Virus record (IMG/VR): IMGVR_UViG_3300025707_000004
Source of the DNA: a virus
Direction: 5' to 3' (one strand)
DNA: 64,000 nt
Part shown: piece after piece, positions 15,738-28,010 of the stretch
Numbering within the stretch: position 1 is the first letter of the stretch
Layout of the letters: each line of letters opens with the position of its first letter
Position numbers and translations under genes: made by a program
Notes under the pieces: generated by a model
What the model saw: the letters and a program-made list of their open reading frames with translations, nothing else
Told to the model about the DNA's origin: nothing
Database searches by the model: none

Positions 15738-16142
15738 TCAGGCGGCCAGCACTCGAAGCCTACCACCCTCTTCTGCGCGCAGCTCCGTGGAGAGCCCTTC
15801 CGACTCCAGGGCCTCTATGGCCGCGGTGAGGGTGTACCACTGCGCCAAGCCGTCTGGAAACCGGCGGTGCGAGTAGAGCGGGTTCTCACGGTGGAGCCAC
15901 CGAGCAATCCGCGGGCCGTCGTCCTCGTCTCCGCAGCACTCGAAGGTGCTCTGCGCTTCCGCGAACTCGAAGGTGATGGGGAGCATGCCGCCCCACACGC
16001 TCTTGTCGACCTTGAGGCCCGGGTGCTTCCGCATCTGGACGTCCTGAATCTCGGTATCGGGGAAGCCGAGCTTGACCAGGGTGCGCTTCAGCAGGTCGAG
16101 GTCGGTCAGGCGAGGAACGGTTATGCGTACGTACTTGCTCAC
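15738..16142 (-). CDS. DUF1257/Ycf35-like protein
   Basis: 'LTDLDLLKRTLVKLGF...AQWY...EEGGRLRV' pattern; context with DUF2997-like and AAA genes. Confidence 0.55.
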   Translation of the reverse strand: MSKYVRITVPRLTDLDLLKRTLVKLGFPDTEIQDVQMRKHPGLKVDKSVWGGMLPITFEFAEAQSTFECCGDEDDGPRIARWLHRENPLYSHRRFPDGLAQWYTLTAAIEALESEGLSTELRAEEGGRLRVLAA

Positions 16143-16813
16143 AGGCTCTTCTTTCTCGTGGCGGGGTCTTTAATCTCCCGCAGTACCTTGTCGGCCGGGA
16201 AGCCGGTGATGAGGGCGCCCCCTGTTGAGTCTACCAGGACGTCGACAGAGAAATGGCGCTTCAGGTCGCTGTCATTGAACCTCTCCCCGAAGAGGGTGAC
16301 CCGCTGGTTGCTGGAGGAGGCGTAGGTGTCCCCCTCGATGAGCCGATTCGCAATCTCGAACCGGCCAGAGATGAGCATGTCAATGTGCGTCATCAATAGC
16401 TCTTTCAGGCCCTGGGGGAAGAACCCGTCCAGCTCCTCCAGGGTGTACCCGGTGAAGACCACGATGTTCGGGGCCTGTCTAGCCCCACGCCGTGTGCGCA
16501 ACAGCGCCAGCAGGGTCAGGAACTCCTCGCCTTGCTGGAAAGGCTCGCCACCGGAGAAAGTGATTCCCTCCGCTTCCTCCTCATCGAGGCGGCGGAGGAG
16601 TTCCCGAGCGGAATAGTCCGTCTGGTAGGCGGTTACCCCTGTCCGTGCCTTCACCGACCACAGCTCTTTGTTGAAGCAGCCCCCACAGCCCAGGTCGCAG
16701 CCCTGGAAGTGGACCACCAGACGTTTCCCGGGGCCGTTGACGTTGAAGCTGGTGTTGATGCCACGGACCCGCAGGGTGTCTCCGGTTGTTCGGTAGGAAA
16801 GGGGGTTGGTCAA
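16139..16813 (-). CDS. Radical SAM protein (NrdG/activase-like)
   Basis: CxxxCxxC (CDLGCGGC), GITFSGGEPF, SSNQR. Confidence 0.85.
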   Translation of the reverse strand: MTNPLSYRTTGDTLRVRGINTSFNVNGPGKRLVVHFQGCDLGCGGCFNKELWSVKARTGVTAYQTDYSARELLRRLDEEEAEGITFSGGEPFQQGEEFLTLLALLRTRRGARQAPNIVVFTGYTLEELDGFFPQGLKELLMTHIDMLISGRFEIANRLIEGDTYASSSNQRVTLFGERFNDSDLKRHFSVDVLVDSTGGALITGFPADKVLREIKDPATRKKSL

Positions 16814-16992
16814 ACCTGGACTCCCGTCTCGACAGCCACCTCGTAGTACTCGTCCTTGTTGTCTTCGTCCCAGCCGGCACCATCGAGCGCCGCCTTGACG
16901 GCCTCGGTCACCTGCTCACAGGCAGGGCCGACGACGCCGCTGACCTCCATGGTGGCGTTGCCGTTCCTGTCTACGATGATTTCGATTTCCAT
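16810..16992 (-). CDS. DUF2997-like small protein
   Basis: MEIEIIVDRNGNATMEVSGVVGPACEQVT. Confidence 0.7.
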   Translation of the reverse strand: MEIEIIVDRNGNATMEVSGVVGPACEQVTEAVKAALDGAGWDEDNKDEYYEVAVETGVQV

Positions 16993-17819
16993 TCGTCCAG
17001 CGCCTTTATGTAGTGAGCACGTTTCCGCGCTAGTTGGTTTCTTGCGGCCCGGTAGCCCGGACCAAAGTTGGTGTTGGTTACGGGGTCCTTCCACCAAGCC
17101 CCTACGCGTAGGAAGAGCCCGGTGTGCTGCAGGTACATGAGCAGCTCGTATGTCTCGTCTATTCCCCGCCGCGGCCAGATGGACACCTTGGTCTCCGCGT
17201 CCTTTCGGGTGCGGCCGTTGGCTATGAGCAGGCGGACCCGCGCCCGTTGCTCAGCGAGCTGGCCGTAGATGGTCCTGAAGGACCCCTTTTGCATCTCGAT
17301 GGCGTGGTCCATATGGCAGCTGACGGTGTCGTGCAGGTAGGGGTGGATGCCATGCTCCATGCTCCAGCGCATCTGGTTTGCGACCACAACGAGGGCGCCA
17401 ACGGCTTTAGCCGTGGACCGGAGCATGGAGAGCCCCTGGTCTATTAGCCGCCGTTCTGCGTACGGGACGTGCGCCCACAGCGCGGTGTTGGAGGTCGCGG
17501 AGGTCACCAGTCCAGGGAGGTGGTCAATCAGGACGACCCGCACTCCCTCCTTCAGCATGTGGTAGGCCGTCTCGAAGCCAAGCTCCCCGGTACCGGGGAC
17601 GGCGATGATTGGGTCGACCCTCAGCTGGCGGAGCCACCTGGGGTCGGGGATGGTTGTGGCGACCAGACCGGTAGGCTCTGGCCGCGCTGTTTTCAGGATG
17701 GCTCTGCCCAGCGTGGATACACCCGAGTCAGGCATACCCCACATGGCGAGTACGCCCGGACGGAGTCCGCCCGCGACTACGGCGTCCAATACGCCGAGCC
17801 CCGTCCGGTACGTTCTCAT
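16971..17819 (-). CDS. RecA/UvsX-like protein with degenerate Walker A
   Basis: TGLGVLDAVVAGGL, GMPDSGVST (no Lys), VLID, ANQMR, GAWW. Confidence 0.7.
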   Translation of the reverse strand: MRTYRTGLGVLDAVVAGGLRPGVLAMWGMPDSGVSTLGRAILKTARPEPTGLVATTIPDPRWLRQLRVDPIIAVPGTGELGFETAYHMLKEGVRVVLIDHLPGLVTSATSNTALWAHVPYAERRLIDQGLSMLRSTAKAVGALVVVANQMRWSMEHGIHPYLHDTVSCHMDHAIEMQKGSFRTIYGQLAEQRARVRLLIANGRTRKDAETKVSIWPRRGIDETYELLMYLQHTGLFLRVGAWWKDPVTNTNFGPGYRAARNQLARKRAHYIKALDEWKSKSS

Positions 17820-19423
17820 TGAGTCCTTCTTCCTCGACTTCCTCGTTTGAGCCGCCCGACGCGAGTACCGGTAGGCCCGGCAGGGACAGCATCCTCTTCA
17901 GGCGCCGTAGCGTATACGGCTCGGCCCTCCGCCCACGAGCGAAGGTTCTCCAGTTTCTCCTTCATCGTCCGTGAGATAGGCACCACTACTGTTTGGGCAG
18001 CGATGATGTCGTTCTCGTTGAACTCACGGCTCTCAGCAAAGGCGGAGAACATGGCGCTCTCGATGAGGGTCTCTATCTCCGCCCCCGTGTAGCCCGCGCT
18101 CTTCTGAGCGAGGAGGTCGAGGTCGTAGTTCCCCCCATCCCGCCCCCGAGCACGGAGGTGAATCGAGAGAATCTCCTTGCGCTCGACGGTGTTGGGGAGG
18201 TCGACGAAGAAGATGCTGTCGAAGCGACCAGCGCGCAGGGCTTCAGGCGGTAGCTTTGACACGTCGTTCGCCGTGGCCACCACGAACACGGGAGAGGTCT
18301 TCTCCTGCATCCACGTCAACCATGTGCCGAAGACGCGGTCCGAGGTACCTCCGTCCCTCTCCCCGCCGCCGCTGCCCATACCCTTCTCAAGCTCATCCAC
18401 CCAGAGCACACAAGGGCTGATTACCTCAGCAAGCTGAAGCGCCTCACGGAGCTGCTTCTCGGACTGTCCGAGGTAGCTGCCCATGATTTTGCCCAGGTCC
18501 AGTCGGACCACGGGGAGGTTCCACTCGCCGCCGATGGCTTTGGCTACCCAACTCTTGCCACCGCCGGGAACCCCGACAAGTAGCAGCCCCTTGGGGAGAG
18601 GCAGCTGGTATTCCCTCGCTTCTTGCGAGAAAGCAAGCTTCCGCTGCCCCAGCCAGCTCTTGAGGGTGCCCATGCCACCCACGGACTCAAGACCGTTCAA
18701 AGAGTCCCAAAACTCAAGGAACCCGCTCCGCTTGATGATGCCCTTCTTCTCTGCCGTGATTATCCGCGGGTCGAAGCGGCCGGTTGAGCAGAAGCTGCTG
18801 GCGAGGGCGTTACCGACCTCATGAATAGTCAGACCCAGTGAGGCCCCGCTGACCTCCCACACCTGGACGGGTGTTAGCTCAAGTTCTTGGCTGTCCCCGT
18901 ACATCGTCACGATGTCGGTCAGCTCTTCACGGGTTGGTAGGGGCCAGTGCATGACCGTGACGGTCTTCTCTAGCCGTTTGGGGATGTTCACCTCAGCGTC
19001 AACGATGATGATGCTGTGGGGCAACCCCTGCGTCGATATCTTCTGCGCTATATCTTTCAGCTGCCGGAGGATTGGGTAGGCATTCCCGGTAGTAAGGAAA
19101 TGGCAGAAGTCCCTCAGTATCCAGACCCACGCATCAACCTGCCCACCACTCGAATCGAGGCGGGAGTTGATGTACTGCAGGGCACCTACTGGGGACTTCA
19201 CCGAGTTGTCGTCAACGGCCTTATCAGGCTCGGGGCTGTACAAGGTCTGCACAGCTTGGCTCAACGACCAGCGGACCACGGCCGTGCGGCCGTTCTCCAC
19301 CTCGTCTCCACTCCTTATGTGTTCGAGGATGGCTGCCTCGACCCGGTCCTCTTCGTGCGACTGAATCGCGAGGACCGGGTACGCAGCGTCGAGATACACG
19401 CCAAGCTGTTCTTTGGCGCTCAT
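17816..19423 (-). CDS. Ycf46-type AAA+ ATPase (degenerate N-terminal plus active C-terminal AAA domain)
   Basis: GVPGGGKS Walker A, LWVDELEK Walker B, TAND, RAGRFD. Confidence 0.9.
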   Translation of the reverse strand: MSAKEQLGVYLDAAYPVLAIQSHEEDRVEAAILEHIRSGDEVENGRTAVVRWSLSQAVQTLYSPEPDKAVDDNSVKSPVGALQYINSRLDSSGGQVDAWVWILRDFCHFLTTGNAYPILRQLKDIAQKISTQGLPHSIIIVDAEVNIPKRLEKTVTVMHWPLPTREELTDIVTMYGDSQELELTPVQVWEVSGASLGLTIHEVGNALASSFCSTGRFDPRIITAEKKGIIKRSGFLEFWDSLNGLESVGGMGTLKSWLGQRKLAFSQEAREYQLPLPKGLLLVGVPGGGKSWVAKAIGGEWNLPVVRLDLGKIMGSYLGQSEKQLREALQLAEVISPCVLWVDELEKGMGSGGGERDGGTSDRVFGTWLTWMQEKTSPVFVVATANDVSKLPPEALRAGRFDSIFFVDLPNTVERKEILSIHLRARGRDGGNYDLDLLAQKSAGYTGAEIETLIESAMFSAFAESREFNENDIIAAQTVVVPISRTMKEKLENLRSWAEGRAVYATAPEEDAVPAGPTGTRVGRLKRGSRGRRTQ

Positions 19424-19438: not shown

Positions 19439-20740
19439 CTACTCTGCGGCCTTGCTGCTCCGACGCAGCTTGCGCTTGGCCGGGGCAGCGGGCGCCGCCT
19501 CTTCGCCAGCCGGTGCAGCCGCCTCGCTCGCGGGGGCAGCGGCGTCAACCTTCTTGGCCGAACGCTTGCGCGGGGTCTTCTTCGCGGCCTTCTTCGTGGT
19601 CTTCTTCGCGGCGACCTTCTTGGGCTTGGCCTCCTTCTTCGGCTTCGGCTTCGGGATGACCGCGAGGTCGATGTCGTCCGTCACGCCGTAGACCAGCGCG
19701 TTCTCATCGCAGCCCATGTTGAACCACGCCAAGGTCGCCAGAATGGCCTGCCGGCGGTCGTCGTCCATGTCGGTGTAGCAGGCGTCGGAGGTGAGGTCCG
19801 CGGCGAACTTCGCCACCTCACCCGTGGTCCGCTTCGTCTTGGCCTTCTCCACGATGTCGCGAGCGGCCTTCTTGTCGGAGGTCAGCTTCGCCAGCGCGGC
19901 CTTCTGGGCCGTGCGGTTCGGCGTGCCGTCCTTCTTGAACATGTCCTTGCTACTGGCCACCGCGAGGGCCTGCTTCAGGGTGATGGACCCGTCACGGATG
20001 GCGTCGAGGTACTCCGGCAGCGTCTTGGACGCGACCTTGTGGTACTGCGACACCGTCGCCTGGGACTTCGCCAGCAGCGCACTCACCTGGGTCTGGGTCC
20101 GCCCACCGGCGAGCAGCTTCTCCGCACCGGAAATCTCCGACGCGAGGTTGAGGCCCGTGCGAGCGAGGTTCTCGGCGAGGTTGAGGTCGTGCGCCCAGCC
20201 CACGACGTCGGGGGTCAGCTCAGTGGCCTCGGTGAAGACCACGGGGACATCGTCGTACTGGAATTCGATTTCAACGGTGATGACGCCATCCCCGTTGCGG
20301 AAGAGGTACGTCTCGTCCTTCTCCATCTCGCCGATGGTTTCGTCGGCGACGCGCTGGTTGTGCTCCGCAATCATCCGGCGCAGCGTGCGCAAGCCTGCGA
20401 CGCGCTGGAAGCCCGCCACGAGGTGGATGGACTCGATGATGGCGTTGTCGTCGTCGTCGACCATCACCTCGCCGTCGTCACTGGTCTGCACGACCGTGAT
20501 GACCTGCGGCGGGGAGATGAGGTGCTGGCTGTGGCCGGTGCCAGCTTCCCAGACGCTGCGCGCCAGGGACTCGGGGGCGGTCTCACCACCGCGGAGGTTC
20601 TCGATCTTGTCGGTCTCGATTGCGTCCAGGGGCACCCACATCTGGTCCATCGACGGGCCAGAGGACTCAGCCCCCGTGCCAGCGGCGGGAACCGGGGCTG
20701 CGGCTTCCGCCGAGGCGGTGTTTTCGGTCTGCTCACTCAT
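19439..20740 (-). CDS. ParB/Spo0J-family protein with Lys/Ala-rich tail
   Basis: AGFQRVAG (GxxR), AENLAR, HTH 'TQTQVSALLAKSQATVSQY', DGSIT. Confidence 0.8.
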   Translation of the reverse strand: MSEQTENTASAEAAAPVPAAGTGAESSGPSMDQMWVPLDAIETDKIENLRGGETAPESLARSVWEAGTGHSQHLISPPQVITVVQTSDDGEVMVDDDDNAIIESIHLVAGFQRVAGLRTLRRMIAEHNQRVADETIGEMEKDETYLFRNGDGVITVEIEFQYDDVPVVFTEATELTPDVVGWAHDLNLAENLARTGLNLASEISGAEKLLAGGRTQTQVSALLAKSQATVSQYHKVASKTLPEYLDAIRDGSITLKQALAVASSKDMFKKDGTPNRTAQKAALAKLTSDKKAARDIVEKAKTKRTTGEVAKFAADLTSDACYTDMDDDRRQAILATLAWFNMGCDENALVYGVTDDIDLAVIPKPKPKKEAKPKKVAAKKTTKKAAKKTPRKRSAKKVDAAAPASEAAAPAGEEAAPAAPAKRKLRRSSKAAE

Positions 20741-20889
20741 TGTAGGAATGGTCCTTTCTGACCTGTTCAAGTGCGTCAGGGGCGGCGTGTTTGCCCCGAC
20801 GTCGAGCACTCTAGCAGGTGGTTTCGCGGTCAGCGAAACAAAAATTATTAGCGGCTAATAGGGACCGTGGCTAGCTGCCATGTGTACTT

Positions 20890-22345
20890 TTGGAGGGTTT
20901 AGAGGGGTGACCACAATTTTGTGGTCGGTGTTCTGAATGATTCCGAGTAGTTACGCCCCTTCAGGGCTAGAGGTTTTAGAGGCGACCACAACTTTGTGGT
21001 CAGCGAAGTCAATGATTTCAGGCACTTAGCTGCATTAGTTGCAGTCTGCAAGTGACCACAAGGTTGTGGTCACCCCTTGGGTGTGTTCGCCCCGTCGCGC
21101 TTGCGCCTCTTTATAGAAGCCAGCCTAGTTCTGGCCGTGTTTACGTCCGCAACTGGCTGTATTTCGCTCTTAATTCGGAGGCTTCTGAGGGTGGAAACGT
21201 CCCCTCTTATCTCAAGTCCTTGTTCTTTAAGGCGAATCTCCACAACACCCAAACGAAGGACCACGTCATCTGCCTCGACGGTGAGGAAGCGCAGCGCGGG
21301 GTAGCTCTGGGCCAGAACCCGCAGCTCCCCGGCGAGGTCGGCCACCATCCGTGCGTCCCTCGAAGAGGACGCAAGTTCTGTCTGCCTTATTGCTTCTACC
21401 TGCAGGTTGATGAGGTTTACGGCATTTACTCGCCCAAGCAGCGCAGCTATCTGGTCAAAGGAGGATTTCATCTGCAGACGGTCTGCGAGACGTAGCGCTG
21501 CGAGGGCGTGAGCGAAGCGCCCCTGCAAGTCTGAGATACCTGAGATGAGTTGTACTCTCTCAGCTTCTAGCTCAGTAATGTTAGTTTCGGTAGCCGCTAT
21601 CACTCCCTCGTCAGCAACGGGCGTTAGCCCGAGAACGGTGCTCCTGACGTTCCGTGCATCTGCCAGCCAGTCAGAGAGTAGGCGCTGCAGGGCCTCCGCT
21701 TCGCGGAAGAACACCCCCGCGTCGTAGACCAGCTCCTCAGCCTCCCAGAGGTACTGGTCAAACATACGTTGTCTGAACGTAGTGAACTGCTCAGGAGAGA
21801 GTGTGAAGTCTTGTAGAGCAGAGAGGAAGTTGGTGTAGAGGCTGGGGACCAGGACCACTGCCGGGGGCAGGGTCTTGTAGGTGTTCAGTTTCTGGAGCCC
21901 CGCCCACACCTCTGGGCAGGCGACGCGGTAGGGCAGGTGCACGGCTACCAGCCGCGAGGCTGGAATGTGCGTCCACTGCAGAATCCGCCCCGTATCCTTC
22001 GTTGAAAGCGAGCCCTCTTCCCAGTACGTATCGTCAGTTGGGTCGTAGAACTCTATTTCTGGAGGCCGTTTTAGGACAGAACTGCGACTGATTTTGATGT
22101 GAACGGTGTCCGGTTTCGAGGGAGAAAGGAACGAAAACTCACGATGGGGCATTTCTCGTCCCAGGTGTGTGCGGGCTCTGGGGGTGACCACAACCTTGTG
22201 GTCACCTCTAATACTTCTACAACGGGCCTAAGTATGCAGAATCATTAGAGGTGCTGACCACAAAATTGTGGTCACCCACAGAGTGTGTACGGCTAAGTAC
22301 CTGAAATCATTGAACGTGGTGACCACAATGATTTGTGGTCACCAC
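20890..22345. mobile_element. Inverted-repeat-bounded cassette with 3+3 GACCACAA-N2-4-TTGTGGTC palindromes
   Basis: Palindromes at 20909, 20984, 21054 and 22186, 22256, 22321; perfect 25-bp IR at 21052-21076 and 22181-22205. Confidence 0.55.
21070..22152 (-). CDS. Hypothetical coiled-coil protein inside the IR cassette
   Basis: ATG at 22152; stop codon lies within the left IR; codon usage more AT-rich. Confidence 0.6.
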   Translation of the reverse strand: MPHREFSFLSPSKPDTVHIKISRSSVLKRPPEIEFYDPTDDTYWEEGSLSTKDTGRILQWTHIPASRLVAVHLPYRVACPEVWAGLQKLNTYKTLPPAVVLVPSLYTNFLSALQDFTLSPEQFTTFRQRMFDQYLWEAEELVYDAGVFFREAEALQRLLSDWLADARNVRSTVLGLTPVADEGVIAATETNITELEAERVQLISGISDLQGRFAHALAALRLADRLQMKSSFDQIAALLGRVNAVNLINLQVEAIRQTELASSSRDARMVADLAGELRVLAQSYPALRFLTVEADDVVLRLGVVEIRLKEQGLEIRGDVSTLRSLRIKSEIQPVADVNTARTRLASIKRRKRDGANTPKG

Positions 22346-22368
22346 GCTCTGTGTGGGTCAAGCCGGTA

Positions 22369-23085
22369 TTAGCGGCTAATACGACGACCCTGGTAGGGCG
22401 GGTAGGTGATGGAGTGCCTCTTGAGGTATTGCGTCACCCCGATAGTGACGCTGTAGGACGCGACCTGAGTGTCCGCGTGGGCATTCCACGGCCCGGTGGT
22501 GTGGGCGCCTTTGATGAAGCGGTTCGCGACATCGCTGGGATTGATGACTGGGACCACCCCGGCGTGAACCAGGGCGTCTGCGAGCCATTGAGGGCAGCTG
22601 AGGTCTCGCAGATCCTCAAGCTGGTCAGATGAGAGCACGCCCTCCGCCACGTCGACATTGACCTGGAGGTATGAGCTGAGGGTCTTTCCCAGTACTGCTG
22701 GGCCCTGAGCGCTCTTGTTCGTTGCGTGTGCCATCAGCGCCTGCCAGAAGGTCGTGAACAACCTATCCTTGGCACCGCGGTTGGTGGCTCTGGTCTCTGT
22801 GGCGTTATTGGGCGCCCAACCCCCGCTGAGCACATAGCTCAACGCACGGGGGCCTATCATCATGGCGTCCGGCTTCATGATGATGACTCCCCGAGCCCGC
22901 GCGAACCCCCGTTTGTCCAGGGGCACCCCCATGTACACGGCCTCCCCGTCGAGCACGCTCCTTACGAAGTGTATGTCGATGGGGGGAAGCCGCGCGCCTT
23001 CTCTGTCCTCCGGGAAATACCGGAATTCAAAGGCGGGGACGATTGCGGAGCGGAAGAGCGGCTCCAGCTCAACTTCTATGGCCAC
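22369..23085 (-). CDS. Hypothetical protein, last gene of the Ubl operon
   Basis: Starts 4 nt after the ThiF stop. Confidence 0.6.
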   Translation of the reverse strand: MAIEVELEPLFRSAIVPAFEFRYFPEDREGARLPPIDIHFVRSVLDGEAVYMGVPLDKRGFARARGVIIMKPDAMMIGPRALSYVLSGGWAPNNATETRATNRGAKDRLFTTFWQALMAHATNKSAQGPAVLGKTLSSYLQVNVDVAEGVLSSDQLEDLRDLSCPQWLADALVHAGVVPVINPSDVANRFIKGAHTTGPWNAHADTQVASYSVTIGVTQYLKRHSITYPPYQGRRISR

Positions 23086-23088
23086 CGG

Positions 23089-23778
23089 CTAGTCGACCGA
23101 GATGAGGAGGCCAGCGGGGTTGAACAGCGAGAAGTTGTAGCGCTGATACAGCTTCTCCTGCTCGCCAAGAAAGGCGCTGGTGACGTACCCCGCCAACGCG
23201 GCACCGATCATCATCCCGCAGAATGGGGTGTTGCGCTCGGTGCAGGGCAGCGGGGAGACGCCGGTCGCGTCGAACGACAGCGGGTACCGCTCGAAAACCC
23301 CCTCCGTGTCCTCCATCCAGGCCGCGTGGATGGAACCGTGCCGAGCACCCATCCGGGCATCCAGCACCAGCTCGGTGGCGGGCAGAAGACACGCCTGCTC
23401 GAACACCTGCTGCCGGACTGCCAGCGAGTCGACCGCGGGGATGATGTAGCTGGTGCCCTCCGGCACCTGCTCCTTCGACTCGAACTTGTCGACGACCGGC
23501 TTGATTTCGACGCCGAGAGTCGCCCCGATGCCCTCGTATAGTGCCTCGACCTTGTCCAAGCCTACGTCACCAAGGCCGTACCCCTGCGGGTAGACGTTGA
23601 CGTTGTCGACCACGTCAAAGTCCATCACCGTGACGTTCTCGAATCCGGTGCGGACCAGCGCCCGGACCAGCCAGCTCCCGATGGACCCCGCCCCGATGAC
23701 CAGGATGCCGTGCTCCTTGGCGCTCTTGACGTCGAGCACTGTGGAGTACCGCGCGTGGTAGTTGGGTTCTTCGCTCAT
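23089..23778 (-). CDS. ThiF/E1-like ubiquitin-activating enzyme
   Basis: ILVIGAGSIGS, DFDVVD-N, KVEAL, AVDS, DARMG, candidate catalytic Cys in 'PLPCT'. Confidence 0.9.
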   Translation of the reverse strand: MSEEPNYHARYSTVLDVKSAKEHGILVIGAGSIGSWLVRALVRTGFENVTVMDFDVVDNVNVYPQGYGLGDVGLDKVEALYEGIGATLGVEIKPVVDKFESKEQVPEGTSYIIPAVDSLAVRQQVFEQACLLPATELVLDARMGARHGSIHAAWMEDTEGVFERYPLSFDATGVSPLPCTERNTPFCGMMIGAALAGYVTSAFLGEQEKLYQRYNFSLFNPAGLLISVD

Positions 23779-25361
23779 GCCGTTGCCTCCTTGGTGGTCT
23801 TCTTCTTGGTGGTCTTCTTCTTGGTGGTCTTCTTCGGAGGCACCGCCGTGACCTCCCCCGTCTCCGCGTCAACAACCTCCTGCAGCTCCAGCGGGGGCTC
23901 CGGCTCGGGCGTCGGAGGCTGAGTGGCCACCTCACCCCGAGGCGCCCCAAGCTCGGCCCAGCCCTCCGCTTCGAGGCTGTCCGGGACGATGGCAACGAGG
24001 CCGTACTCGTTGTCCTTGAGTTGGTCTAGGGCCTTCTTCCCACCAACACCCATCCAGATGCTGATGGTCGTCTGCCCCGCGCGGACGCGGAGGTTCTTGG
24101 AGAGGCAGCCGGTGGCCATGTACTCCGGCGGGCGCTTCTCCCACATGATGCCGATGGGCCTCGCTTTCCAGAAGCCGCCGGCCATGTTCGCCTCGGTCCC
24201 GTCCATCGCCTTGTCCACATCGTGGAGCACGCGCCGACCGTGGACGGACGCCCCCGCCATCCACCAGCCGCTCGCGTCGTCGTAGGTGCACTGCACCCGC
24301 TTGTACTCGCTGGCGACGATGATCTCGAACTCGGAGTCGGTCTGAGACCAGCTGAGGACTGACCCGCGCTCCTTGGCCTGCTTGCAGAAGGCATCGAGCA
24401 GGTGCCACTCGTCGACACTGTTGGCCGCGAGGCTGGTTTCCTTGACGGCTTTCTCCAGCCCCTCCAGGTCCGAGGGCTTGAGGAAGCCTTCGTAGTAGAG
24501 GACGTGGGCCATGTAGGGCAGAGTTTCCCGAAGGTCGATGGCCGACTTGCTGCGCGCGTTCGCAGACCAGCTCAGCAGGACCGCGAGGTCTGCGGGGAGG
24601 TGACGCTGGGAAGGACCACTACTCCCGCCGTGCCGAGCCCGATGTGCTGCCACCAGCCCGTTCATCGACTGGGGCCAGTAGCTGCTGTCGTCATCGTCTG
24701 TGAGCCCGAGCCGCCGCGCCGTGGCGTGGTTGTAGGCGGGACGAGCCCCAGGGGTCCCGTGGTTCTTCTGCTTGTAGACCGTCACGGGGGCAGTCCCGTA
24801 GCTGGCCTGCTCCTCCAGGGTGATTTGCGCCCAGCTGAGTTCCGACGACACGTCCACGTCGATGGAAAATTCGAGCTTCTCCCCGACCGTGAAGTTCAGC
24901 CCCATGTAGAAGATATCCAGGCGGAGGTAGTAGTCCGCCTTCAGGATGGGCTTGCCGGCGAAGTACTTCGCCGCCACCTTCTTGTTCAGCACGAGGCTGT
25001 ACTGGATGTCCCACTCCAGCTTCTTGGCGGTCGCGATGTCAGTGCCGCTGAAGAAGCACTCCATGACGTCGTGGCTGTGGCCCCACACGACGAGCCGCTC
25101 CATGGTGTACCCGGCGGACTCGCACAGAGCCATCACGTCCTTCGTGTCGAAGATCGTGCTGACCCGGGTGTTTTCCTGCTTCGGGACGATGATGTCCACG
25201 ATGAGCCGGGCATCGTTGGGCGCGCAGACGCATGCCCAACTGCATTCACCGTTGGAGGTGCGGACCAGCTGCATCATCCGATCCATGACCTGCTGCTTGA
25301 ATCGGAGGGGAGGCAGGGTGAACTTCAATTCGGCCGCTGTCGCGGTTTTGGTTCCGCTCAT
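23775..25361 (-). CDS. JAB/JAMM metallopeptidase with long C-terminal extension
   Basis: E (GEC)...WGHSH...FFSGTD JAMM motif. Confidence 0.85.
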   Translation of the reverse strand: MSGTKTATAAELKFTLPPLRFKQQVMDRMMQLVRTSNGECSWACVCAPNDARLIVDIIVPKQENTRVSTIFDTKDVMALCESAGYTMERLVVWGHSHDVMECFFSGTDIATAKKLEWDIQYSLVLNKKVAAKYFAGKPILKADYYLRLDIFYMGLNFTVGEKLEFSIDVDVSSELSWAQITLEEQASYGTAPVTVYKQKNHGTPGARPAYNHATARRLGLTDDDDSSYWPQSMNGLVAAHRARHGGSSGPSQRHLPADLAVLLSWSANARSKSAIDLRETLPYMAHVLYYEGFLKPSDLEGLEKAVKETSLAANSVDEWHLLDAFCKQAKERGSVLSWSQTDSEFEIIVASEYKRVQCTYDDASGWWMAGASVHGRRVLHDVDKAMDGTEANMAGGFWKARPIGIMWEKRPPEYMATGCLSKNLRVRAGQTTISIWMGVGGKKALDQLKDNEYGLVAIVPDSLEAEGWAELGAPRGEVATQPPTPEPEPPLELQEVVDAETGEVTAVPPKKTTKKKTTKKKTTKEATA

Positions 25362-26598
25362 AACGCGTCTTGAGCCTTTCGAGTAGGCCGCCCAGATTCT
25401 GGGTCAGCTGGAGATTCGTGTCGGCCGACCCGAGGAGGTCGGGAAAGATGGGCTGCCCGCAGATGCCTTTGGCGTCTGGAAACGGGTTGCCCTGTCGTTT
25501 GGCTTCGGTTCGGAGGCAGTTGGTGTGCGCCACTGTGGGGGTCTGCCCGGGTTTGGGAGAAGGGAGTGTGTCTGCGCAGACAAAACAGCGCGGTGTGCGG
25601 CAAGCGTTCGCGGTGTGTGGCGCCCCACGACCACAGGGACATTCGTCCTCGTCCGTGTGGCAGTCCGTCCAGTTGCTCAGCGCAAGGTACGGGTCCGCGT
25701 GGTTGTAGTGACTGAGTAGGTGGCAGACCAGGATGGCCGCGTCCAACCACCGCCCGTCAGACATGTGGTCTAGCAGCTCTGACGAGCCGGTGCTTCCACA
25801 GCAGAGGCTGCCCCCGCTGTTCGCATGTGGCATGAAGTAGTCCATACCGGCGGTCAGAAGGTCGACGGGCTCGTCAATAAAGGGAGTGATGTACGCCCCC
25901 GCGTGCCGAGAGACATTCCCCTGGTTCAGTCGGATGCGCACGGAGAGCCGGGGGAAGTAGGTATCAATGGGCCACGTACCATCCTCCGAAGTTTCCGCCC
26001 AGGTGCGTGTGATGCGCTTGGTGCGGAAGGACACTTCCAGGAAGGTTGGCCGGTCGATGACGGTGATTCCAGCCCGGCGGTCGATGAGGGCCAGGAAGTA
26101 TCCGACGTTCTCGTCTTCCTCGGGGTAGGGCATACCCGCTTCGATGCGGGTCTTGAGGGCACCCAGTCGCTTCGCAACCTTTGCTTGGTTGCTGTTGTGC
26201 CGCTGGAGCAGGTTCAGGGCGTGCCTGTGTGCCTGCTGGTTCTGTAGCAGTTGGGTATGGGCGTCACTAAGGTTGCTGGCCGCCCGCTCTCCGTCACGCT
26301 TGGCGGTCGATACGCGTTGCTGCAGGGCAAGTACGTCAGCGTCCGCAAGCGCCTTTTGTTCGAGTGCGGCTTCCTTGGCGACCTTCGCCGCCGCGATGGC
26401 TTCTTCTCCGTCGTCGGTTTTCACCATCGCGTCGGCGATAAGATTGGGAAAGGCGTCAGCTTCCGCTTGGAGGTTGACGACCATGCGGGTGAGCCCGGTG
26501 CCCGCCTTTTTGGCGGCGGTATTGTAGCGGTCAACGAGGGCCTGCACGACCTCGCGGTCAGTTGCCCCCGCATCTAAGCCAATGAGGCCGATGCGCAA
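25246..26598 (-). CDS. E2-like conjugating enzyme with N-terminal coiled coil and C-terminal Cys/His-rich domain
   Basis: AAGGAG RBS plus TTG start; MPHANSGGSLCCG resembles E2 HPH...G.ICLG; YNHADPY. Confidence 0.65.
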   Translation of the reverse strand: MRIGLIGLDAGATDREVVQALVDRYNTAAKKAGTGLTRMVVNLQAEADAFPNLIADAMVKTDDGEEAIAAAKVAKEAALEQKALADADVLALQQRVSTAKRDGERAASNLSDAHTQLLQNQQAHRHALNLLQRHNSNQAKVAKRLGALKTRIEAGMPYPEEDENVGYFLALIDRRAGITVIDRPTFLEVSFRTKRITRTWAETSEDGTWPIDTYFPRLSVRIRLNQGNVSRHAGAYITPFIDEPVDLLTAGMDYFMPHANSGGSLCCGSTGSSELLDHMSDGRWLDAAILVCHLLSHYNHADPYLALSNWTDCHTDEDECPCGRGAPHTANACRTPRCFVCADTLPSPKPGQTPTVAHTNCLRTEAKRQGNPFPDAKGICGQPIFPDLLGSADTNLQLTQNLGGLLERLKTRYERNQNRDSGRIEVHPASPPIQAAGHGSDDAAGPHLQR

Positions 26599-26617
26599 AG
26601 GTATCTCCTTCAAATAG

Positions 26618-26644
26618 AAAAAGGGCGCGGTTTCCCGCGCCCTT
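26618..26644 (-). terminator. Intrinsic terminator between the Ubl and E2 genes
   Basis: AAGGGCGCGG-GAAA-CCGCGCCCTT hairpin then TTT on the - strand. Confidence 0.75.
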
Positions 26645-26676
26645 CTAGTTACCGGTGAGGCAGCGGGAAGGGGCTC

Positions 26677-27099
26677 TTAGCAGCCGCCCTCCACCTTCTG
26701 CGACACCTGAACGCGGAACGTGCCCGCGGAGAGGGTTGTGGTGTTCGAGGCCATCGTCGAGGACATGTCCGGCCTGATGACGGAGACCTCGCGCTCGCTG
26801 ATGTTGACGTTGTTGTCCGCCAAGAGGCGGAACAGGTTCACCCCGGCTTCGGCCTCGACCTCGAACTTGCGCTTTCCGGCGCGGTCGATGATGACCCGGG
26901 ACGCGCCACCGCTGCCGCCACCGCTCGACACAGCGGCGGTCGTGGTGTTGGCCGAGGTGAAGCGCGACAGGTCCTCGATCCACGCGGAGATGCCCGTCTT
27001 GCTGGTCCAGGGCGACGCGTAGGCCGCCTTCTGGTCGCGGTCCATGGCCTTCAGAGCGGCCTTGGCGTCGGAGGGGTCGAGGTTCTTGAGGTTATCCAT
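26677..27099 (-). CDS. Ubiquitin-like (beta-grasp) protein ending KVEGG-C
   Basis: Helical N-domain, SSGGGSGG linker, beta-grasp-like pattern, di-Gly plus one residue; adjacent to E2, JAB and E1. Confidence 0.75.
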   Translation of the reverse strand: MDNLKNLDPSDAKAALKAMDRDQKAAYASPWTSKTGISAWIEDLSRFTSANTTTAAVSSGGGSGGASRVIIDRAGKRKFEVEAEAGVNLFRLLADNNVNISEREVSVIRPDMSSTMASNTTTLSAGTFRVQVSQKVEGGC

Positions 27100-27377
27100 T
27101 TTCTGAGTTCTTTCTCTGCTGCGGCTGCGGTTTCACCCTGCAAGCTGAGCATGTACGTGTACGTCGGGGGGGAAGTGTCTGTGGTTGTAAGCACGGCCGT
27201 CAATGGCGCATCTTCGTTCAGGACTTCTGCGGTGTGTACCAGTCCCCCATAGGTCAGGCGTGCAAGTCCGTCAATAGTGACCGACCTGCGGATGAGTTTC
27301 AATGTGCGACCCGGGCCAACCCCGAGAAGCGATGTGGTCTTGAAGGGAAGCAGTCGATGGGCGGTTACGCCGTGCAT
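27051..27377 (-). CDS. Hypothetical protein
   Basis: Fills the operon gap. Confidence 0.4.
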   Translation of the reverse strand: MHGVTAHRLLPFKTTSLLGVGPGRTLKLIRRSVTIDGLARLTYGGLVHTAEVLNEDAPLTAVLTTTDTSPPTYTYMLSLQGETAAAAEKELRKWITSRTSTPPTPRPL

Positions 27378-27838
27378 CCGGACAGCAGCTCGTTGAGAAC
27401 GAGCTTGTCGGGGTGCGTGGTCTCGAAGCCGTCTGCGAAGAAGGCTACGGTAATCCGGTCCGGCTGTAGCCAGCTGAGTACCTCGTCCATGTGCGTGGCG
27501 GGCGAGATACAGAGGATGCGCTCTCCGGGGTGAAGCGTTGCCACTTGGGCCAGCCTTGCGGCGACTGGCGTTGAGTGACCGCTCACCCGAGCGTTTCGCA
27601 AGCAGACTTCCCATCCGCGTGCGTTCAGCCTCTGTAGGAAGCTGGTCTGGGCTCCAGGGCGTATGCGAGTGGTTACGCCCCAAACAGGTTCTGTGTGGTC
27701 TGGTCCGAAGACCTTGTCTTGTGCGGCTTTTACGAGGTCGCCGTAGTCAAGTCTTGCCTGGCTGTACCGGGGCTCCAGACGTTTGATGTCCTGCCATGCG
27801 TAATAAAGCGCGCTCAGATCAACTAATGTTTTCAACAC
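27365..27838 (-). CDS. NYN/LabA (PIN-like) fold protein, probably degenerate
   Basis: LVD..., LDYGDL, FLQRLNARGWEV pattern; acidic catalytic residues incomplete. Confidence 0.4.
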   Translation of the reverse strand: MLKTLVDLSALYYAWQDIKRLEPRYSQARLDYGDLVKAAQDKVFGPDHTEPVWGVTTRIRPGAQTSFLQRLNARGWEVCLRNARVSGHSTPVAARLAQVATLHPGERILCISPATHMDEVLSWLQPDRITVAFFADGFETTHPDKLVLNELLSGCTA

Positions 27839-27877: not shown

Positions 27878-28010
27878 GCTCTTATACCGTGTAACCCCCT
27901 CTTTTTGTACTACATGATGTACACCCCGGTTCGTCGGAAACCCCCGCGGTTATTAGCCGCTAATACCAACGTGTATATCAGGGCAGATGGCGGGGGCTTA
28001 TTGGTATAAG
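27878..28010. promoter_or_regulatory. Divergent pair of N18-spaced ATAAG promoter-like motifs flanking a palindrome
   Basis: - strand 27881-27908 (ACAAA variant); + strand 27983-28010 (GCAGA); palindrome at 27951 between them. Confidence 0.65.

What the first reader, a model, noticed from the sequence alone, without database searches (positions are those of the whole stretch)
22369..27838. Phage-encoded complete ubiquitin-like conjugation operon (Ubl-E2-JAB-E1)
Seen: four adjacent co-oriented genes. They are a beta-grasp-like protein ending KVEGG-C (26677-27099), an E2-like protein (PHANSGGSLCCG), a JAMM peptidase (E...HSH...S..D) and a ThiF/E1 with a candidate catalytic Cys. Known: Ubl/E1/E2/JAB sets occur in bacterial Bil/Bub anti-phage systems and in the PRTRC (ParB-related, ThiF-related) cassette, and JAB trims residues after the di-Gly. 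Inference: here a large myophage carries its own protein-tagging machinery near a ParB gene and an AAA+ ATPase. It may tag host defence proteins, or phage proteins for remodelling. No ThiS/MoaD-pathway genes are nearby, which argues against cofactor sulfur transfer.
Basis: partly seen in the sequence, partly recalled or inferred. Interest (0 to 1): 0.92.

Follow-up and report, generated by a model that had tools for sequence, protein, structure and literature searches.

The report
Phage-encoded ubiquitin-like protein-tagging operon
A large uncultured phage carries its own ubiquitin-style tagging kit (tag, activating enzyme, transfer enzyme, trimming protease); kits like this have so far been studied only as bacterial anti-phage defences, and what this one tags is unknown.

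Summary
On the minus strand lies a six-gene unit.

- **Tag:** a 140-aa protein whose C-terminal half is predicted as a beta-grasp and ends VEGG-C.
- **E2:** a 455-aa protein with a UBC-like core. Its motif PH..(7)..C.G lines up with HPN...Cys85 of UbcH5.
- **Protease:** a JAMM peptidase with a complete E / HxH / SxxD motif. Its best solved relatives are Rpn11.
- **E1:** a 229-aa single-domain ThiF with all adenylation residues and an invariant PCxE cysteine.
- **Two unknown genes:** 157 aa upstream and 238 aa downstream.

The gene order Ubl-E2-JAB-E1 equals that of BilABCD. The block is syntenic in metagenome contigs down to about 22% E2 identity, including a 175-kb TARA Oceans scaffold. It is always followed by two unknown genes, a ParB-like gene, a Cdc48/VCP-like AAA+ gene and a RecA-like gene.

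The tags end in Gly plus zero or one residue. A strong terminator hairpin after the tag gene is conserved in position but not in sequence.

The E2 family matches no Pfam, NCBIfam, PADLOC or PHROG model. Related cassettes sit unannotated in the cultured Xanthomonas jumbo phage PhiXhv-15 and probably in crAss001.

Biochemistry and targets are untested. This scan has already reported phage Ubl cassettes on other DNA, but none resembling this sequence.

The parts
27951..27965 (.). 15-bp palindrome TATTAGCCGCTAATA at the upstream edge of the unit
   Evidence: family D7, inverted pairs I9 and I12. It is a perfect inverted partner of the copy at 22367-22381. Its role is unknown.
27365..27838 (-). First gene of the unit, 157 aa, no known family
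   Evidence: ORF. No Pfam, NCBIfam, PHROG or PADLOC match. It is 89% identical to the gene in the same position in L001, more than the Ubl is (60%).
26677..27099 (-). Ubiquitin-like tag: N-terminal helical part, Gly/Ser/Thr linker, C-terminal beta-grasp (residues about 66-134), ending VEGG-C
   Evidence: AF2 model with beta-beta-alpha-beta-beta-beta topology and pLDDT about 70 in that part. The Foldseek PDB matches at E<=0.001 are ubiquitin-like domains, and ubiquitin, NEDD8, MoaD and TtuB follow, with TM by target 0.5-0.65. Gly139 is invariant in five lineages. Relatives end GG, GG, AG-R and AG-A.
26619..26646 (-). Intrinsic-terminator-like hairpin (12-bp stem, then a U run) between the tag gene and the E2 gene
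   Evidence: A strong GC hairpin plus U run lies at the same place in L005, L001, L009 and L012, with different stem sequences in the distant loci (z -2.3 to -4.0).
25246..26613 (-). E2-like protein, 455 aa: coiled coil (about 1-160), UBC-like core (about 165-320, candidate catalytic Cys271), Cys/His-rich zinc module (about 318-366), C-terminal helix
   Evidence: P262, H263, C271, G273, Y303, N304 and W315 are invariant among 24 family members. With the core profile, 4 of 5 PDB hits are UBC E2s and HPH..C aligns to HPN..Cys of UbcH5. In the fold search most of the top 50 are E2, UEV or RWD folds, Z 4.0-5.5. UQ_con is the most recurrent weak Pfam hit in the family.
23775..25286 (-). JAMM/JAB metallopeptidase domain (about the first 125 aa), a roughly 370-aa region of unknown fold, and a Lys/Thr-rich basic tail. 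The start is uncertain (25274-25361) and overlaps the E2 stop.
   Evidence: E14, H70, S71, H72, S80, G81, T82 and D83 are invariant down to 24% identity. The profile matches Rpn11/PSMD14 at E 2.4e-5. Pfam Prok-JAB scores 19.5 bits, below its cut-off of 25.
23089..23778 (-). Minimal ThiF/MoeB-type E1, 229 aa. Its start overlaps the JAB stop (ATGA).
   Evidence: Pfam ThiF E 6.6e-18. Invariant residues are R10 (candidate Arg finger), G29/G31/G34, D53/D55, N61, Q65, K76, D117, R122, R142, and C179 in the PCxE motif.
22369..23085 (-). Protein X, 238 aa, no known family. It starts 3 nt after the E1 stop and is the most conserved gene of the unit.
   Evidence: It is 97% and 83% identical where the Ubl is 90% and 60%. 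It follows ThiF in every related contig. Only 8 clusters match among 5.8 billion proteins. No significant PDB match and no useful Atlas lead.
22367..22381 (.). 15-bp palindrome TATTAGCGGCTAATA at the downstream edge of the unit, overlapping the stop of X
   Evidence: D7, I9.
21070..22191 (-). Protein Y, 373 aa, partly coiled coil, no known family. It is flanked on each side by three GTGACCACAAnnTTGTGGTCAC palindromes.
   Evidence: D1, D2, I3-I8. A gene of 339-377 aa lies in this position in all related contigs.
19439..20809 (-). ParB-like protein with a Lys-rich basic tail (syntenic neighbour; link to the tagging genes not shown)
   Evidence: All matches are weak: HTH_ParB E 0.013 and the PHROG ParB-like family E 4e-4. 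Orthologues in L009 and L016 match HTH_ParB and ParB_N.
17816..19423 (-). AAA+ ATPase whose ATPase domain is closest to the D2 domain of VCP/p97/Cdc48/VAT, with an unknown 240-aa N-terminal part (syntenic neighbour)
   Evidence: Pfam AAA E 2.5e-28. phrog_8638 E 3.9e-139. The best PDB match is an archaeal VCP-like ATPase at E 5.8e-52.
16971..17819 (-). RecA/KaiC-like ATPase, 282 aa (syntenic neighbour)
   Evidence: The window's own matches are weak. The L009 orthologue matches Pfam RecA at E 2.7e-17.

Best explanation
This is a real, phage-encoded ubiquitin-like conjugation cascade.

Proposed mechanism (every chemical step is inferred from the families, none was measured):
1. The tag is made as a precursor ending Gly-Gly-Cys. 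Because a terminator follows its gene, it is probably made in excess over the enzymes.
2. The JAMM peptidase removes the last residue and exposes Gly139.
3. The ThiF-type E1, probably a homodimer, adenylates Gly139 with ATP. It may carry the tag as a thioester on Cys179.
4. The tag passes to Cys271 of the UBC-like E2.
5. The E2 joins the tag to lysines of target proteins. Its coiled coil and Cys-rich zinc module probably supply dimerisation and target choice, since no separate E3 is present.
6. The JAMM peptidase also reverses the conjugation.

The two conserved unknown proteins (157 aa and 238 aa) belong to the same transcription unit. They are candidate adaptors, regulators or main substrates. 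The targets are unknown.
For: - Four independent component tests agree: beta-grasp fold with an invariant terminal Gly; E2 core profile aligned to the UbcH5 HPN-Cys and PNPDDP motifs, plus a UBC-dominated fold search; JAMM motif invariant and Rpn11 as best solved relative; ThiF with an intact adenylation site and an invariant loop Cys.
- The gene order Ubl-E2-JAB-E1 equals bilA-bilB-bilC-bilD. BilC cleaves one residue after the reactive Gly (PMC10557695).
- Genes overlap or abut, and the unit is bounded by two palindrome copies.
- Synteny holds down to about 22% E2 identity in at least five lineages, including a 175-kb marine scaffold.
- Tag ends are Gly plus zero or one residue.
- A terminator after the tag gene is conserved in position with diverged sequence.
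- No sulfur-pathway partner was detected nearby.
Against: - Nothing biochemical was tested.
- The E2 evidence is consistent but individually weak: PDB profile E-values 0.17-1.6, fold Z at most 5.5 (the tool warns that Z under 8 can be a common arrangement), and Pfam UQ_con below threshold.
- The E2 model has low confidence outside the core (mean pLDDT 63.7). The Ubl model is moderate (68.7).
- The E1 is a minimal MoeB/ThiF type, the kind that normally makes thiocarboxylates.
- One relative (the P0007 contig) lacks a JAB-sized gene.
- No E3 and no target is identified.
- The phage nature of the window rests on few hallmark matches.
Confidence: 0.7

Rival explanations
1. Inter-phage or superinfection defence. 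The chemistry is the same, but the cassette is a Bil-like immune module carried by the phage. It would tag structural proteins of competing phages rather than host proteins or the phage's own proteins.
For: The characterised systems with this gene order are anti-phage defences (PMC10557695; Bub, PMC11601596). Phages often carry defence genes (general knowledge).
Against: The block sits at a fixed place in the conserved replication and DNA-handling core of the lineage. It keeps synteny across very divergent relatives, which is unlike a mobile accessory defence island. No PADLOC model matches the E2, JAB or Ubl. No CapH/CapP-type regulators were seen.
Confidence: 0.12
2. Sulfur-carrier pathway. 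The E1 converts the beta-grasp protein to a thiocarboxylate that donates sulfur to a phage nucleotide, tRNA or cofactor modification. The 'E2' would then be an unrelated zinc protein.
For: The E1 is a 229-aa MoeB/ThiF-type enzyme whose best NCBIfam match is ThiF. The tag resembles MoaD, TtuB and ThiS as much as it resembles ubiquitin. A radical-SAM gene lies 6 kb away.
Against: The E2-like gene is conserved, and its invariant Cys aligns with the UbcH5 catalytic Cys. The JAMM peptidase is Rpn11-like. No ThiG/ThiH, MoaE, TtuA, rhodanese or desulfurase domain was found among the scanned neighbours. The radical-SAM protein is of the Fer4_12 type, which is typical of NrdG and QueE (own knowledge).
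Confidence: 0.08
3. PRTRC-like DNA-maintenance module. The tagging genes work with the neighbouring ParB-like, AAA+ and RecA-like proteins to control phage genome segregation, replication or nucleoid proteins, as is suspected but unproven for the plasmid and ICE cassette called PRTRC.
For: The gene content matches the PRTRC idea: ParB-related plus ThiF-related plus JAB, E2 and Ubl. Adjacency holds in all long contigs. JAB and ParB both end in Lys-rich basic tails that suggest DNA association.
Against: NCBIfam PRTRC_ThiF scores 39.5 bits against a cut-off of 144.75, and no other PRTRC model matches. The same AAA+ occurs beside a ParB-like gene in cluster O mycobacteriophages, where no ThiF was found. 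Adjacency may therefore only reflect lineage gene order.
Confidence: 0.1

Closest known systems
BilABCD (Type I/II Bil, 'bacterial ISG15-like') anti-phage ubiquitination operons
   Same: The gene order is the same: Ubl, E2, JAB, E1. The E2 is UBC-like with a catalytic Cys. A JAB peptidase is shown there to cut one residue after the reactive Gly and to reverse conjugates (PMC10557695). The tag here likewise ends in Gly plus zero or one residue.
   Different: - BilD is a large E1 with inactive and active adenylation domains and a mobile Cys domain. The E1 here is a 229-aa single ThiF domain.
- The E2 here is 455 aa, with a coiled coil and a Cys-rich zinc module.
- The tag has an extra N-terminal helical part.
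- Two extra conserved genes are present.
- The system is encoded in the core genome of a phage, not in a bacterial defence locus.
- No defence-library model matches the E2, JAB or Ubl.
PRTRC (ParB-related, ThiF-related cassette) of plasmids and integrative elements
   Same: It combines ThiF-type E1, JAB, E2-like and Ubl genes with a ParB-like gene on a mobile replicon.
   Different: The window's proteins fail the NCBIfam PRTRC models. ThiF scores 39.5 bits against a cut-off of 144.75, and no other component matches. The function of PRTRC itself is unknown. The breakdown of PRTRC components is from my own knowledge.
E2-less Ubl systems (archaeal SAMP/UbaA/HvJAMM1; Thermus TtuB/TtuC)
   Same: They share a minimal MoeB/ThiF-type E1, a MoaD-like beta-grasp tag ending in Gly-Gly, and a JAMM peptidase.
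   Different: Those systems lack an E2 and double as sulfur carriers. Here a conserved UBC-like protein with an invariant Cys lies between the tag and the peptidase.
CBASS Cap2/Cap3
   Same: The ThiF Rossmann region gives weak matches to Cap2 E1-E2 models. Cap2 appears among the fold matches of the E2 core. Cap3 is a JAB peptidase (own knowledge).
   Different: In Cap2 the E1 and E2 are fused, and the substrate is the C-terminus of a CD-NTase rather than a separate Ubl. The scans run here found no nucleotidyltransferase or effector gene nearby.
Unannotated cassettes in cultured phages (Xanthomonas jumbo phage PhiXhv-15; Bacteroides phage crAss001 gp75-gp79)
   Same: **PhiXhv-15:** a 141-aa protein ending ASGG, then an 892-aa protein with the motif IHPH...GSLCLG, then a 227-aa ThiF. 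The 892-aa protein matches this E2 family by hhalign at 67-87% probability, E 5e-6 to 5e-5.

**crAss001:** gp78 carries a motif reading YMHSHV..C.G. gp77 carries HSH-x7-SGTD and is annotated as a metalloprotease. gp76 is ThiF.
   Different: - PhiXhv-15 shows no JAB gene, and its small protein is not detectably similar in sequence.
- The crAss001 gp78 match is not significant (probability 7%).
- The proteins after ThiF are not similar to X.
- The records annotate these genes as 'thiamine biosynthesis protein' or hypothetical.

Membership tests
ThiF/MoeB/E1 adenylating superfamily (Pfam PF00899) | Score above the Pfam gathering threshold | tested here: met
   65.2 bits against a cut-off of 28.1, E 6.6e-18.
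ThiF/MoeB/E1 adenylating superfamily (Pfam PF00899) | Intact nucleotide-binding and adenylation residues, and a Cys in the crossover-loop region | tested here: met
   GxGxxG, D53/D55, N61, Q65, K76, D117, R122, R142, the N-terminal R10 and C179 (PCxE) are invariant in 5 sequences down to 30% identity. Assigning each residue to its role is from my own knowledge of MoeB and ThiF.
JAB/JAMM (MPN+) metallopeptidases | The motif E ... HxH-x7-S-x2-D | tested here: met
   Present and invariant in 4 sequences down to 24% identity. The profile matches Rpn11 at E 2.4e-5 over the motif region.
JAB/JAMM (MPN+) metallopeptidases | Pfam Prok-JAB gathering threshold | tested here: not met
   19.5 bits against a cut-off of 25. 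The L009 orthologue scores 15.3 bits. The domain is too divergent for the curated cut-off.
UBC/E2 superfamily | HPN-type loop followed by the catalytic Cys, then a helix ending in a PNP.DP-like motif | tested here: met
   The family consensus is HPHv..G..CLG ... L..YN..DPY. P262, H263, C271, G273, Y303 and N304 are invariant. HMMER aligns these onto HPNINSNGSICLD ... LLTDPNPDDP of UBC enzymes.
UBC/E2 superfamily | UBC fold (N-terminal helix, four-stranded sheet, active-site loop, crossover helix) | tested here: inconclusive
   In the AF2 core the conserved parts have pLDDT 80-95. In VIA-align most of the top 50 are E2, UEV or RWD folds, but Z is only 4.0-5.5. Foldseek gives no match at E<=0.001.
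UBC/E2 superfamily | Significant match to Pfam UQ_con or the Prok-E2_A to E models | tested here: not met
   No hit for the window protein. Across 24 family members, UQ_con matches 3 (best E 0.031) and Prok-E2_D matches 1 (E 0.12), all below threshold.
Ubiquitin-like beta-grasp modifiers | Beta-grasp fold | tested here: met
   The model has beta-beta-alpha-beta-beta-beta topology. The Foldseek PDB matches at E<=0.001 are ubiquitin-like domains, and ubiquitin, NEDD8, MoaD and TtuB follow, with probability about 1.0 and TM by target 0.5-0.65. Model confidence is moderate (pLDDT about 70). No sequence-level match to the PDB or Pfam.
Ubiquitin-like beta-grasp modifiers | Reactive C-terminal Gly, exposed or followed by a short removable extension | tested here: met
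   The C-termini are GG-C, GG, GG, AG-R and AG-A in five lineages, and the Gly is invariant.
BilABCD | Gene order Ubl-E2-JAB-E1 | tested here: met
   compared with the order stated in PMC10557695.
BilABCD | E1 with tandem inactive and active adenylation domains and an inserted Cys domain | tested here: not met
   The E1 is 229 aa with a single ThiF domain covering residues 18-211. The BilD architecture is given in PMC10557695.
BilABCD | Sequence similarity of the E2, JAB and Ubl to defence-system models | tested here: inconclusive
   No PADLOC or NCBIfam hit for these three proteins. I did not verify that PADLOC 2.0.0 holds Bil models.
PRTRC cassette | Match to NCBIfam PRTRC_ThiF (TIGR03736) above its cut-off, and matches to the other PRTRC component models | tested here: not met
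   39.5 bits against a cut-off of 144.75. No other PRTRC model matches any of the nine proteins at E<=0.1.
PRTRC cassette | A ParB-related gene in the same cassette | tested here: met
   A ParB-like gene lies two genes downstream here and in the related contigs.
ThiS/MoaD sulfur-carrier pathways | Presence of the sulfur-acceptor or sulfur-donor enzymes (ThiG/ThiH, MoaE, TtuA/NcsA, rhodanese, desulfurase) | tested here: not met
   None was found among the larger ORFs of 11-35 kb scanned with Pfam, NCBIfam and PHROGs. Small ORFs were not scanned.
Thioester cascade (function) | E1~Ubl and E2~Ubl thioesters and lysine isopeptide conjugates | not testable with these tools
   This needs biochemistry.

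The most novel reading that the evidence does not exclude
The tagging genes and their fixed neighbours form one machine: a phage-encoded, eukaryote-like 'tag and extract' pathway.

- The E2 has UbcH5-type motifs and a built-in RING-like zinc module. It would act as a combined E2/E3.
- It would tag DNA-bound host or phage proteins.
- The Cdc48/VCP-like AAA+ ATPase would unfold or extract the tagged proteins.
- The Rpn11-like peptidase, with its basic DNA-binding tail, would recycle the tag.

This would be a viral counterpart of the ubiquitin/Cdc48/Rpn11 logic.
Probability: 0.1. Interest if true: 0.92.

Novelty: new variant of a known kind. Interest (0 to 1): 0.74.

Why it matters
Ubiquitin-like conjugation in bacteria has been characterised as an anti-phage weapon (CBASS Cap2/Cap3, Bil, Bub). 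The papers I could search describe no complete Ubl-E2-JAB-E1 cascade encoded by a bacteriophage.

Here such a cascade sits in the conserved core of a lineage of large marine and other uncultured phages. It is built on an E2 family that no library recognises. Its E2 and peptidase align best with the eukaryotic UbcH5 and Rpn11.

If it is active, phages use protein tagging during infection. That opens the questions of what they tag and whether such viral modules contributed to the evolution of ubiquitin signalling.

Related cassettes in the cultured phages PhiXhv-15 and crAss001 would make this testable at the bench.

Tried and rejected
- **Complex prediction.** E1 plus mature tag plus the E2 core as partner gave no verdict (score 0.00, controls not run). 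This is neither support nor evidence against binding.
- **IMG/VR scans.** Searches with the E2, a distant E2 and protein X found no related viral contig. The alignment-based scan could not run for lack of a conserved stretch.
- **blastn against phage records.** The whole region gave no match.
- **tblastn with the window's ThiF.** It found nothing in cultured phages. The more typical L009 ThiF was needed to reach crAss-like, Flavobacterium and Xanthomonas phages.
- **PDB profile search with the full-length E2 alignment.** It returned only coiled-coil noise. Trimming to the core was necessary. The three-sequence profile gave only a ribosomal zinc-ribbon protein at E 0.64.
- **Foldseek on the E2 model.** No match at E<=0.001.
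- **Tag profile.** No PDB sequence match.
- **Protein X.** No PDB match, no Atlas lead at 0.9 or above, and no similarity to the genes after ThiF in PhiXhv-15 or crAss001.
- **Whole genome.** Not held for this window.
- **Idea rejected: JAB is present only where the tag needs trimming.** The L009 tag ends in GG, yet a gene with the JAMM motif follows its E2.
- **Idea rejected as unsupported: the AAA+ always travels with the tagging genes.** Cluster O mycobacteriophages and other cultured phages have the AAA+, but no ThiF match was found in them.

Full report
**1. What is there**

Between two copies of a 15-bp palindrome (27951-27965 and 22367-22381) the minus strand carries six tightly packed genes:
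- a 157-aa ORF (27365-27838);
- a 140-aa protein (26677-27099);
- a 455-aa protein (25246-26613);
- a protein of about 503 aa (23775 to about 25286), whose start overlaps the previous stop;
- a 229-aa protein (23089-23778), whose ATG overlaps the previous stop;
- a 238-aa protein (22369-23085), which starts 3 nt after the previous stop.

Downstream on the same strand come a 373-aa gene, a ParB-like gene, an AAA+ ATPase, a RecA-like ATPase and a radical-SAM gene.

**2. The tag**

No library recognises the 140-aa protein by sequence. Its AlphaFold model has a helical N-terminal part, a disordered Gly/Ser/Thr linker and a C-terminal beta-beta-alpha-beta-beta-beta domain with pLDDT about 70.

The Foldseek matches at E<=0.001 are ubiquitin-like domains. 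Ubiquitin itself, NEDD8, MoaD and TtuB are among the further matches (TM by target 0.5-0.65).

The protein ends VEGG-C. Relatives in four other lineages end GG, GG, AG-R and AG-A, and the Gly is invariant. This is the pattern of a modifier with a reactive C-terminal glycine, sometimes capped by one residue. In Bil the JAB enzyme removes exactly one residue after the Gly (PMC10557695).

**3. The E2**

The 455-aa protein has no family match. An exhaustive HMMER search of 1.84 billion representatives found only 22 relatives. Their alignment gives the consensus HPHv..G..CLG ... L..YN..DPY..L..W, with P262, H263, C271, G273, Y303, N304 and W315 invariant.

A profile of the core alone, searched against all PDB sequences, returned five hits. 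Four are UBC enzymes. HMMER placed the family's HPH...C on HPNINSNGSIC (catalytic Cys85 of UbcH5) and YN..DP on PNPDDP. The E-values are 0.17-1.6, so the weight lies in the exclusivity and the register of the hits.

The AF2 core is confident in the conserved parts. An exhaustive structural comparison ranks Pex4p, UbcH7, UBE2E1, UBE2S, UbcH5, UbcH10, Cdc34, Cap2, a Bub complex (BubCD-BubB-BubA) and UEV and RWD domains among the top 50, at a modest Z of 4.0-5.5. Foldseek alone was not significant. UQ_con is the most recurrent weak Pfam hit across family members.

I conclude that this is a divergent UBC-like E2 with Cys271 as the candidate active site. It is flanked by an N-terminal coiled coil and a conserved Cys/His-rich segment. 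One relative hits a prokaryotic RING model there. That segment could provide the target choice an E3 would otherwise give; this is inference.

**4. The peptidase and the E1**

The third enzyme has the full JAMM motif, invariant down to 24% identity. Its profile matches the proteasomal deubiquitinase Rpn11 at E 2.4e-5. The curated Pfam threshold is not reached. About 370 further residues are of unknown fold, and the protein ends in a Lys/Thr-rich basic tail.

The E1 is a clear ThiF-family member. It is only 229 aa, with the glycine loop, the acidic and basic adenylation residues, an N-terminal Arg and a Cys in a PCxE motif all invariant. It is therefore of the MoeB/ThiF homodimer type, unlike the two-domain BilD.

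**5. Conservation**

The same order was found in five lineages (tag, E2, JAB, ThiF, X of about 235 aa, Y of about 360 aa, ParB-like, AAA+, RecA-like, DUF2997, radical SAM):
- contigs 60-90% identical to the window;
- TARA and other metagenome contigs where the E2 is about 22% identical;
- a 175-kb marine scaffold.

One relative lacks a JAB-sized gene. Protein X is the best conserved gene of the unit and is known only from these contigs.

Between the tag gene and the E2 gene every lineage has a strong GC hairpin followed by a U run, with different stem sequences in the distant lineages. I read this as an attenuator that sets tag excess over the enzymes.

**6. Is it a phage?**

- No genome is held for the window.
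- The AAA+ belongs to a phage family: phrog_8638 at E 4e-139, and 35% identity to cluster O mycobacteriophage gp97.
- A 1440-aa protein resembles structural proteins of 180-kb phages and weakly matches a tail-sheath family.
- No cellular housekeeping gene appeared in any scan.
- Earlier notes on the same genome describe virion genes and a phage RNA polymerase. I did not test these.

**7. Relatives in cultured phages**

tblastn with a distant ThiF of this family found ThiF genes in 80 phage records.

In Xanthomonas jumbo phage PhiXhv-15 the ThiF is preceded by a 141-aa protein ending ASGG and by an 892-aa protein. The 892-aa protein carries IHPH...GSLCLG and is homologous to this E2 family (hhalign probability 67-87%).

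In crAss001, gp79 to gp75 read as follows: gp78, a protein with an E2-like motif; gp77, a JAMM peptidase; gp76, ThiF; and hypothetical proteins on either side (gp79, gp75). The gp78 match is not significant. These genes are annotated as 'thiamine biosynthesis protein' or hypothetical.

**8. Known or new**

The kind of system is known from bacteria: operon classes of Iyer et al. 2006, Bil, Bub and CBASS. Asgard-virus E1 homologues have been noted. A jumbo-phage survey does not mention such a system.

Searches of the held literature found no description of a complete phage-encoded cascade or of the crAss cassette.

This scan has reported phage Ubl cassettes on other DNA several times. None resembles this one in sequence.

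I class it as a new variant of a known kind. It has a new E2 family, a minimal E1, two new partner genes and a place in the phage core genome.

**9. Limits**

No chemistry was tested. The E2 evidence is convergent but weak piece by piece. The targets are unknown. The link to ParB, the AAA+ and RecA may be gene order only, since the AAA+ and ParB occur together in phages where no ThiF was found. The complex prediction gave no verdict.

Noticed in passing
window 20846-20860, 22367-22381, 27951-27965: Three copies of the 15-bp palindrome TATTAG-YCG/CGR-CTAATA. Two of them bracket the tagging unit exactly, and the copy at 22367 overlaps the stop codon of protein X. They may mark transcription-unit borders or ParB sites.
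   Followed up: partly
window 20904-21071 and 22181-22349: Three copies of the palindrome GTGACCACAAnnTTGTGGTCAC, 65-75 bp apart, lie on each side of the 373-aa gene Y (21070-22191). This looks like a symmetric operator array around a single gene.
   Followed up: partly
window 23787-23835 (JAB C-terminus) and 19439-19600 (ParB C-terminus): Both the JAB protein and the ParB-like protein end in Lys-rich basic tails. In JAB the tail is KKTTKKKTTKKKTTK, encoded by three 15-nt tandem repeats. In ParB it is a KPKPKKEAKPKK... tail. Both suggest DNA or nucleoid association.
   Followed up: no
window 17816-19423: The ATPase domain of the AAA+ is closest to the D2 domain of archaeal VAT and eukaryotic p97/Cdc48 (E 5.8e-52). 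Its 240-aa N-terminal part is unknown. The same protein family lies seven genes from a ParB-like gene in cluster O mycobacteriophages such as Catdawg (gp97 and gp90).
   Followed up: partly
L005 10748-13207 and L006 8349-10808: In two close relatives the AAA+ gene is called as two pieces (359 and 187 aa), separated by a 187-aa HNH-domain gene. This is probably a homing endonuclease or intein-type insertion that the window lacks.
   Followed up: no
L014 (Bacteroides phage crAss001, gp75-gp79) and L015 (Xanthomonas phage PhiXhv-15, 2691-7446): Cultured phages carry unannotated cassettes of the same logic, and the ThiF is annotated 'thiamine biosynthesis protein'. crAss001 gp79 has a possible ubiquitin-like N-terminal domain; I did not test this.
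   Followed up: partly
window 27051-27683 versus 27365-27838: Two overlapping ORFs in different frames lie upstream of the tag gene. Gene callers chose the 210-aa frame in L005 and the 157-aa frame in L001. The 157-aa frame is 89% identical between the window and L001, so it is probably the real one.
   Followed up: partly
window 16139-16813: A radical-SAM protein of the Fer4_12 type (E 3.8e-29). It is syntenic with DUF2997 and DUF1257 genes in related contigs, and its function in this phage lineage is unknown.
   Followed up: no
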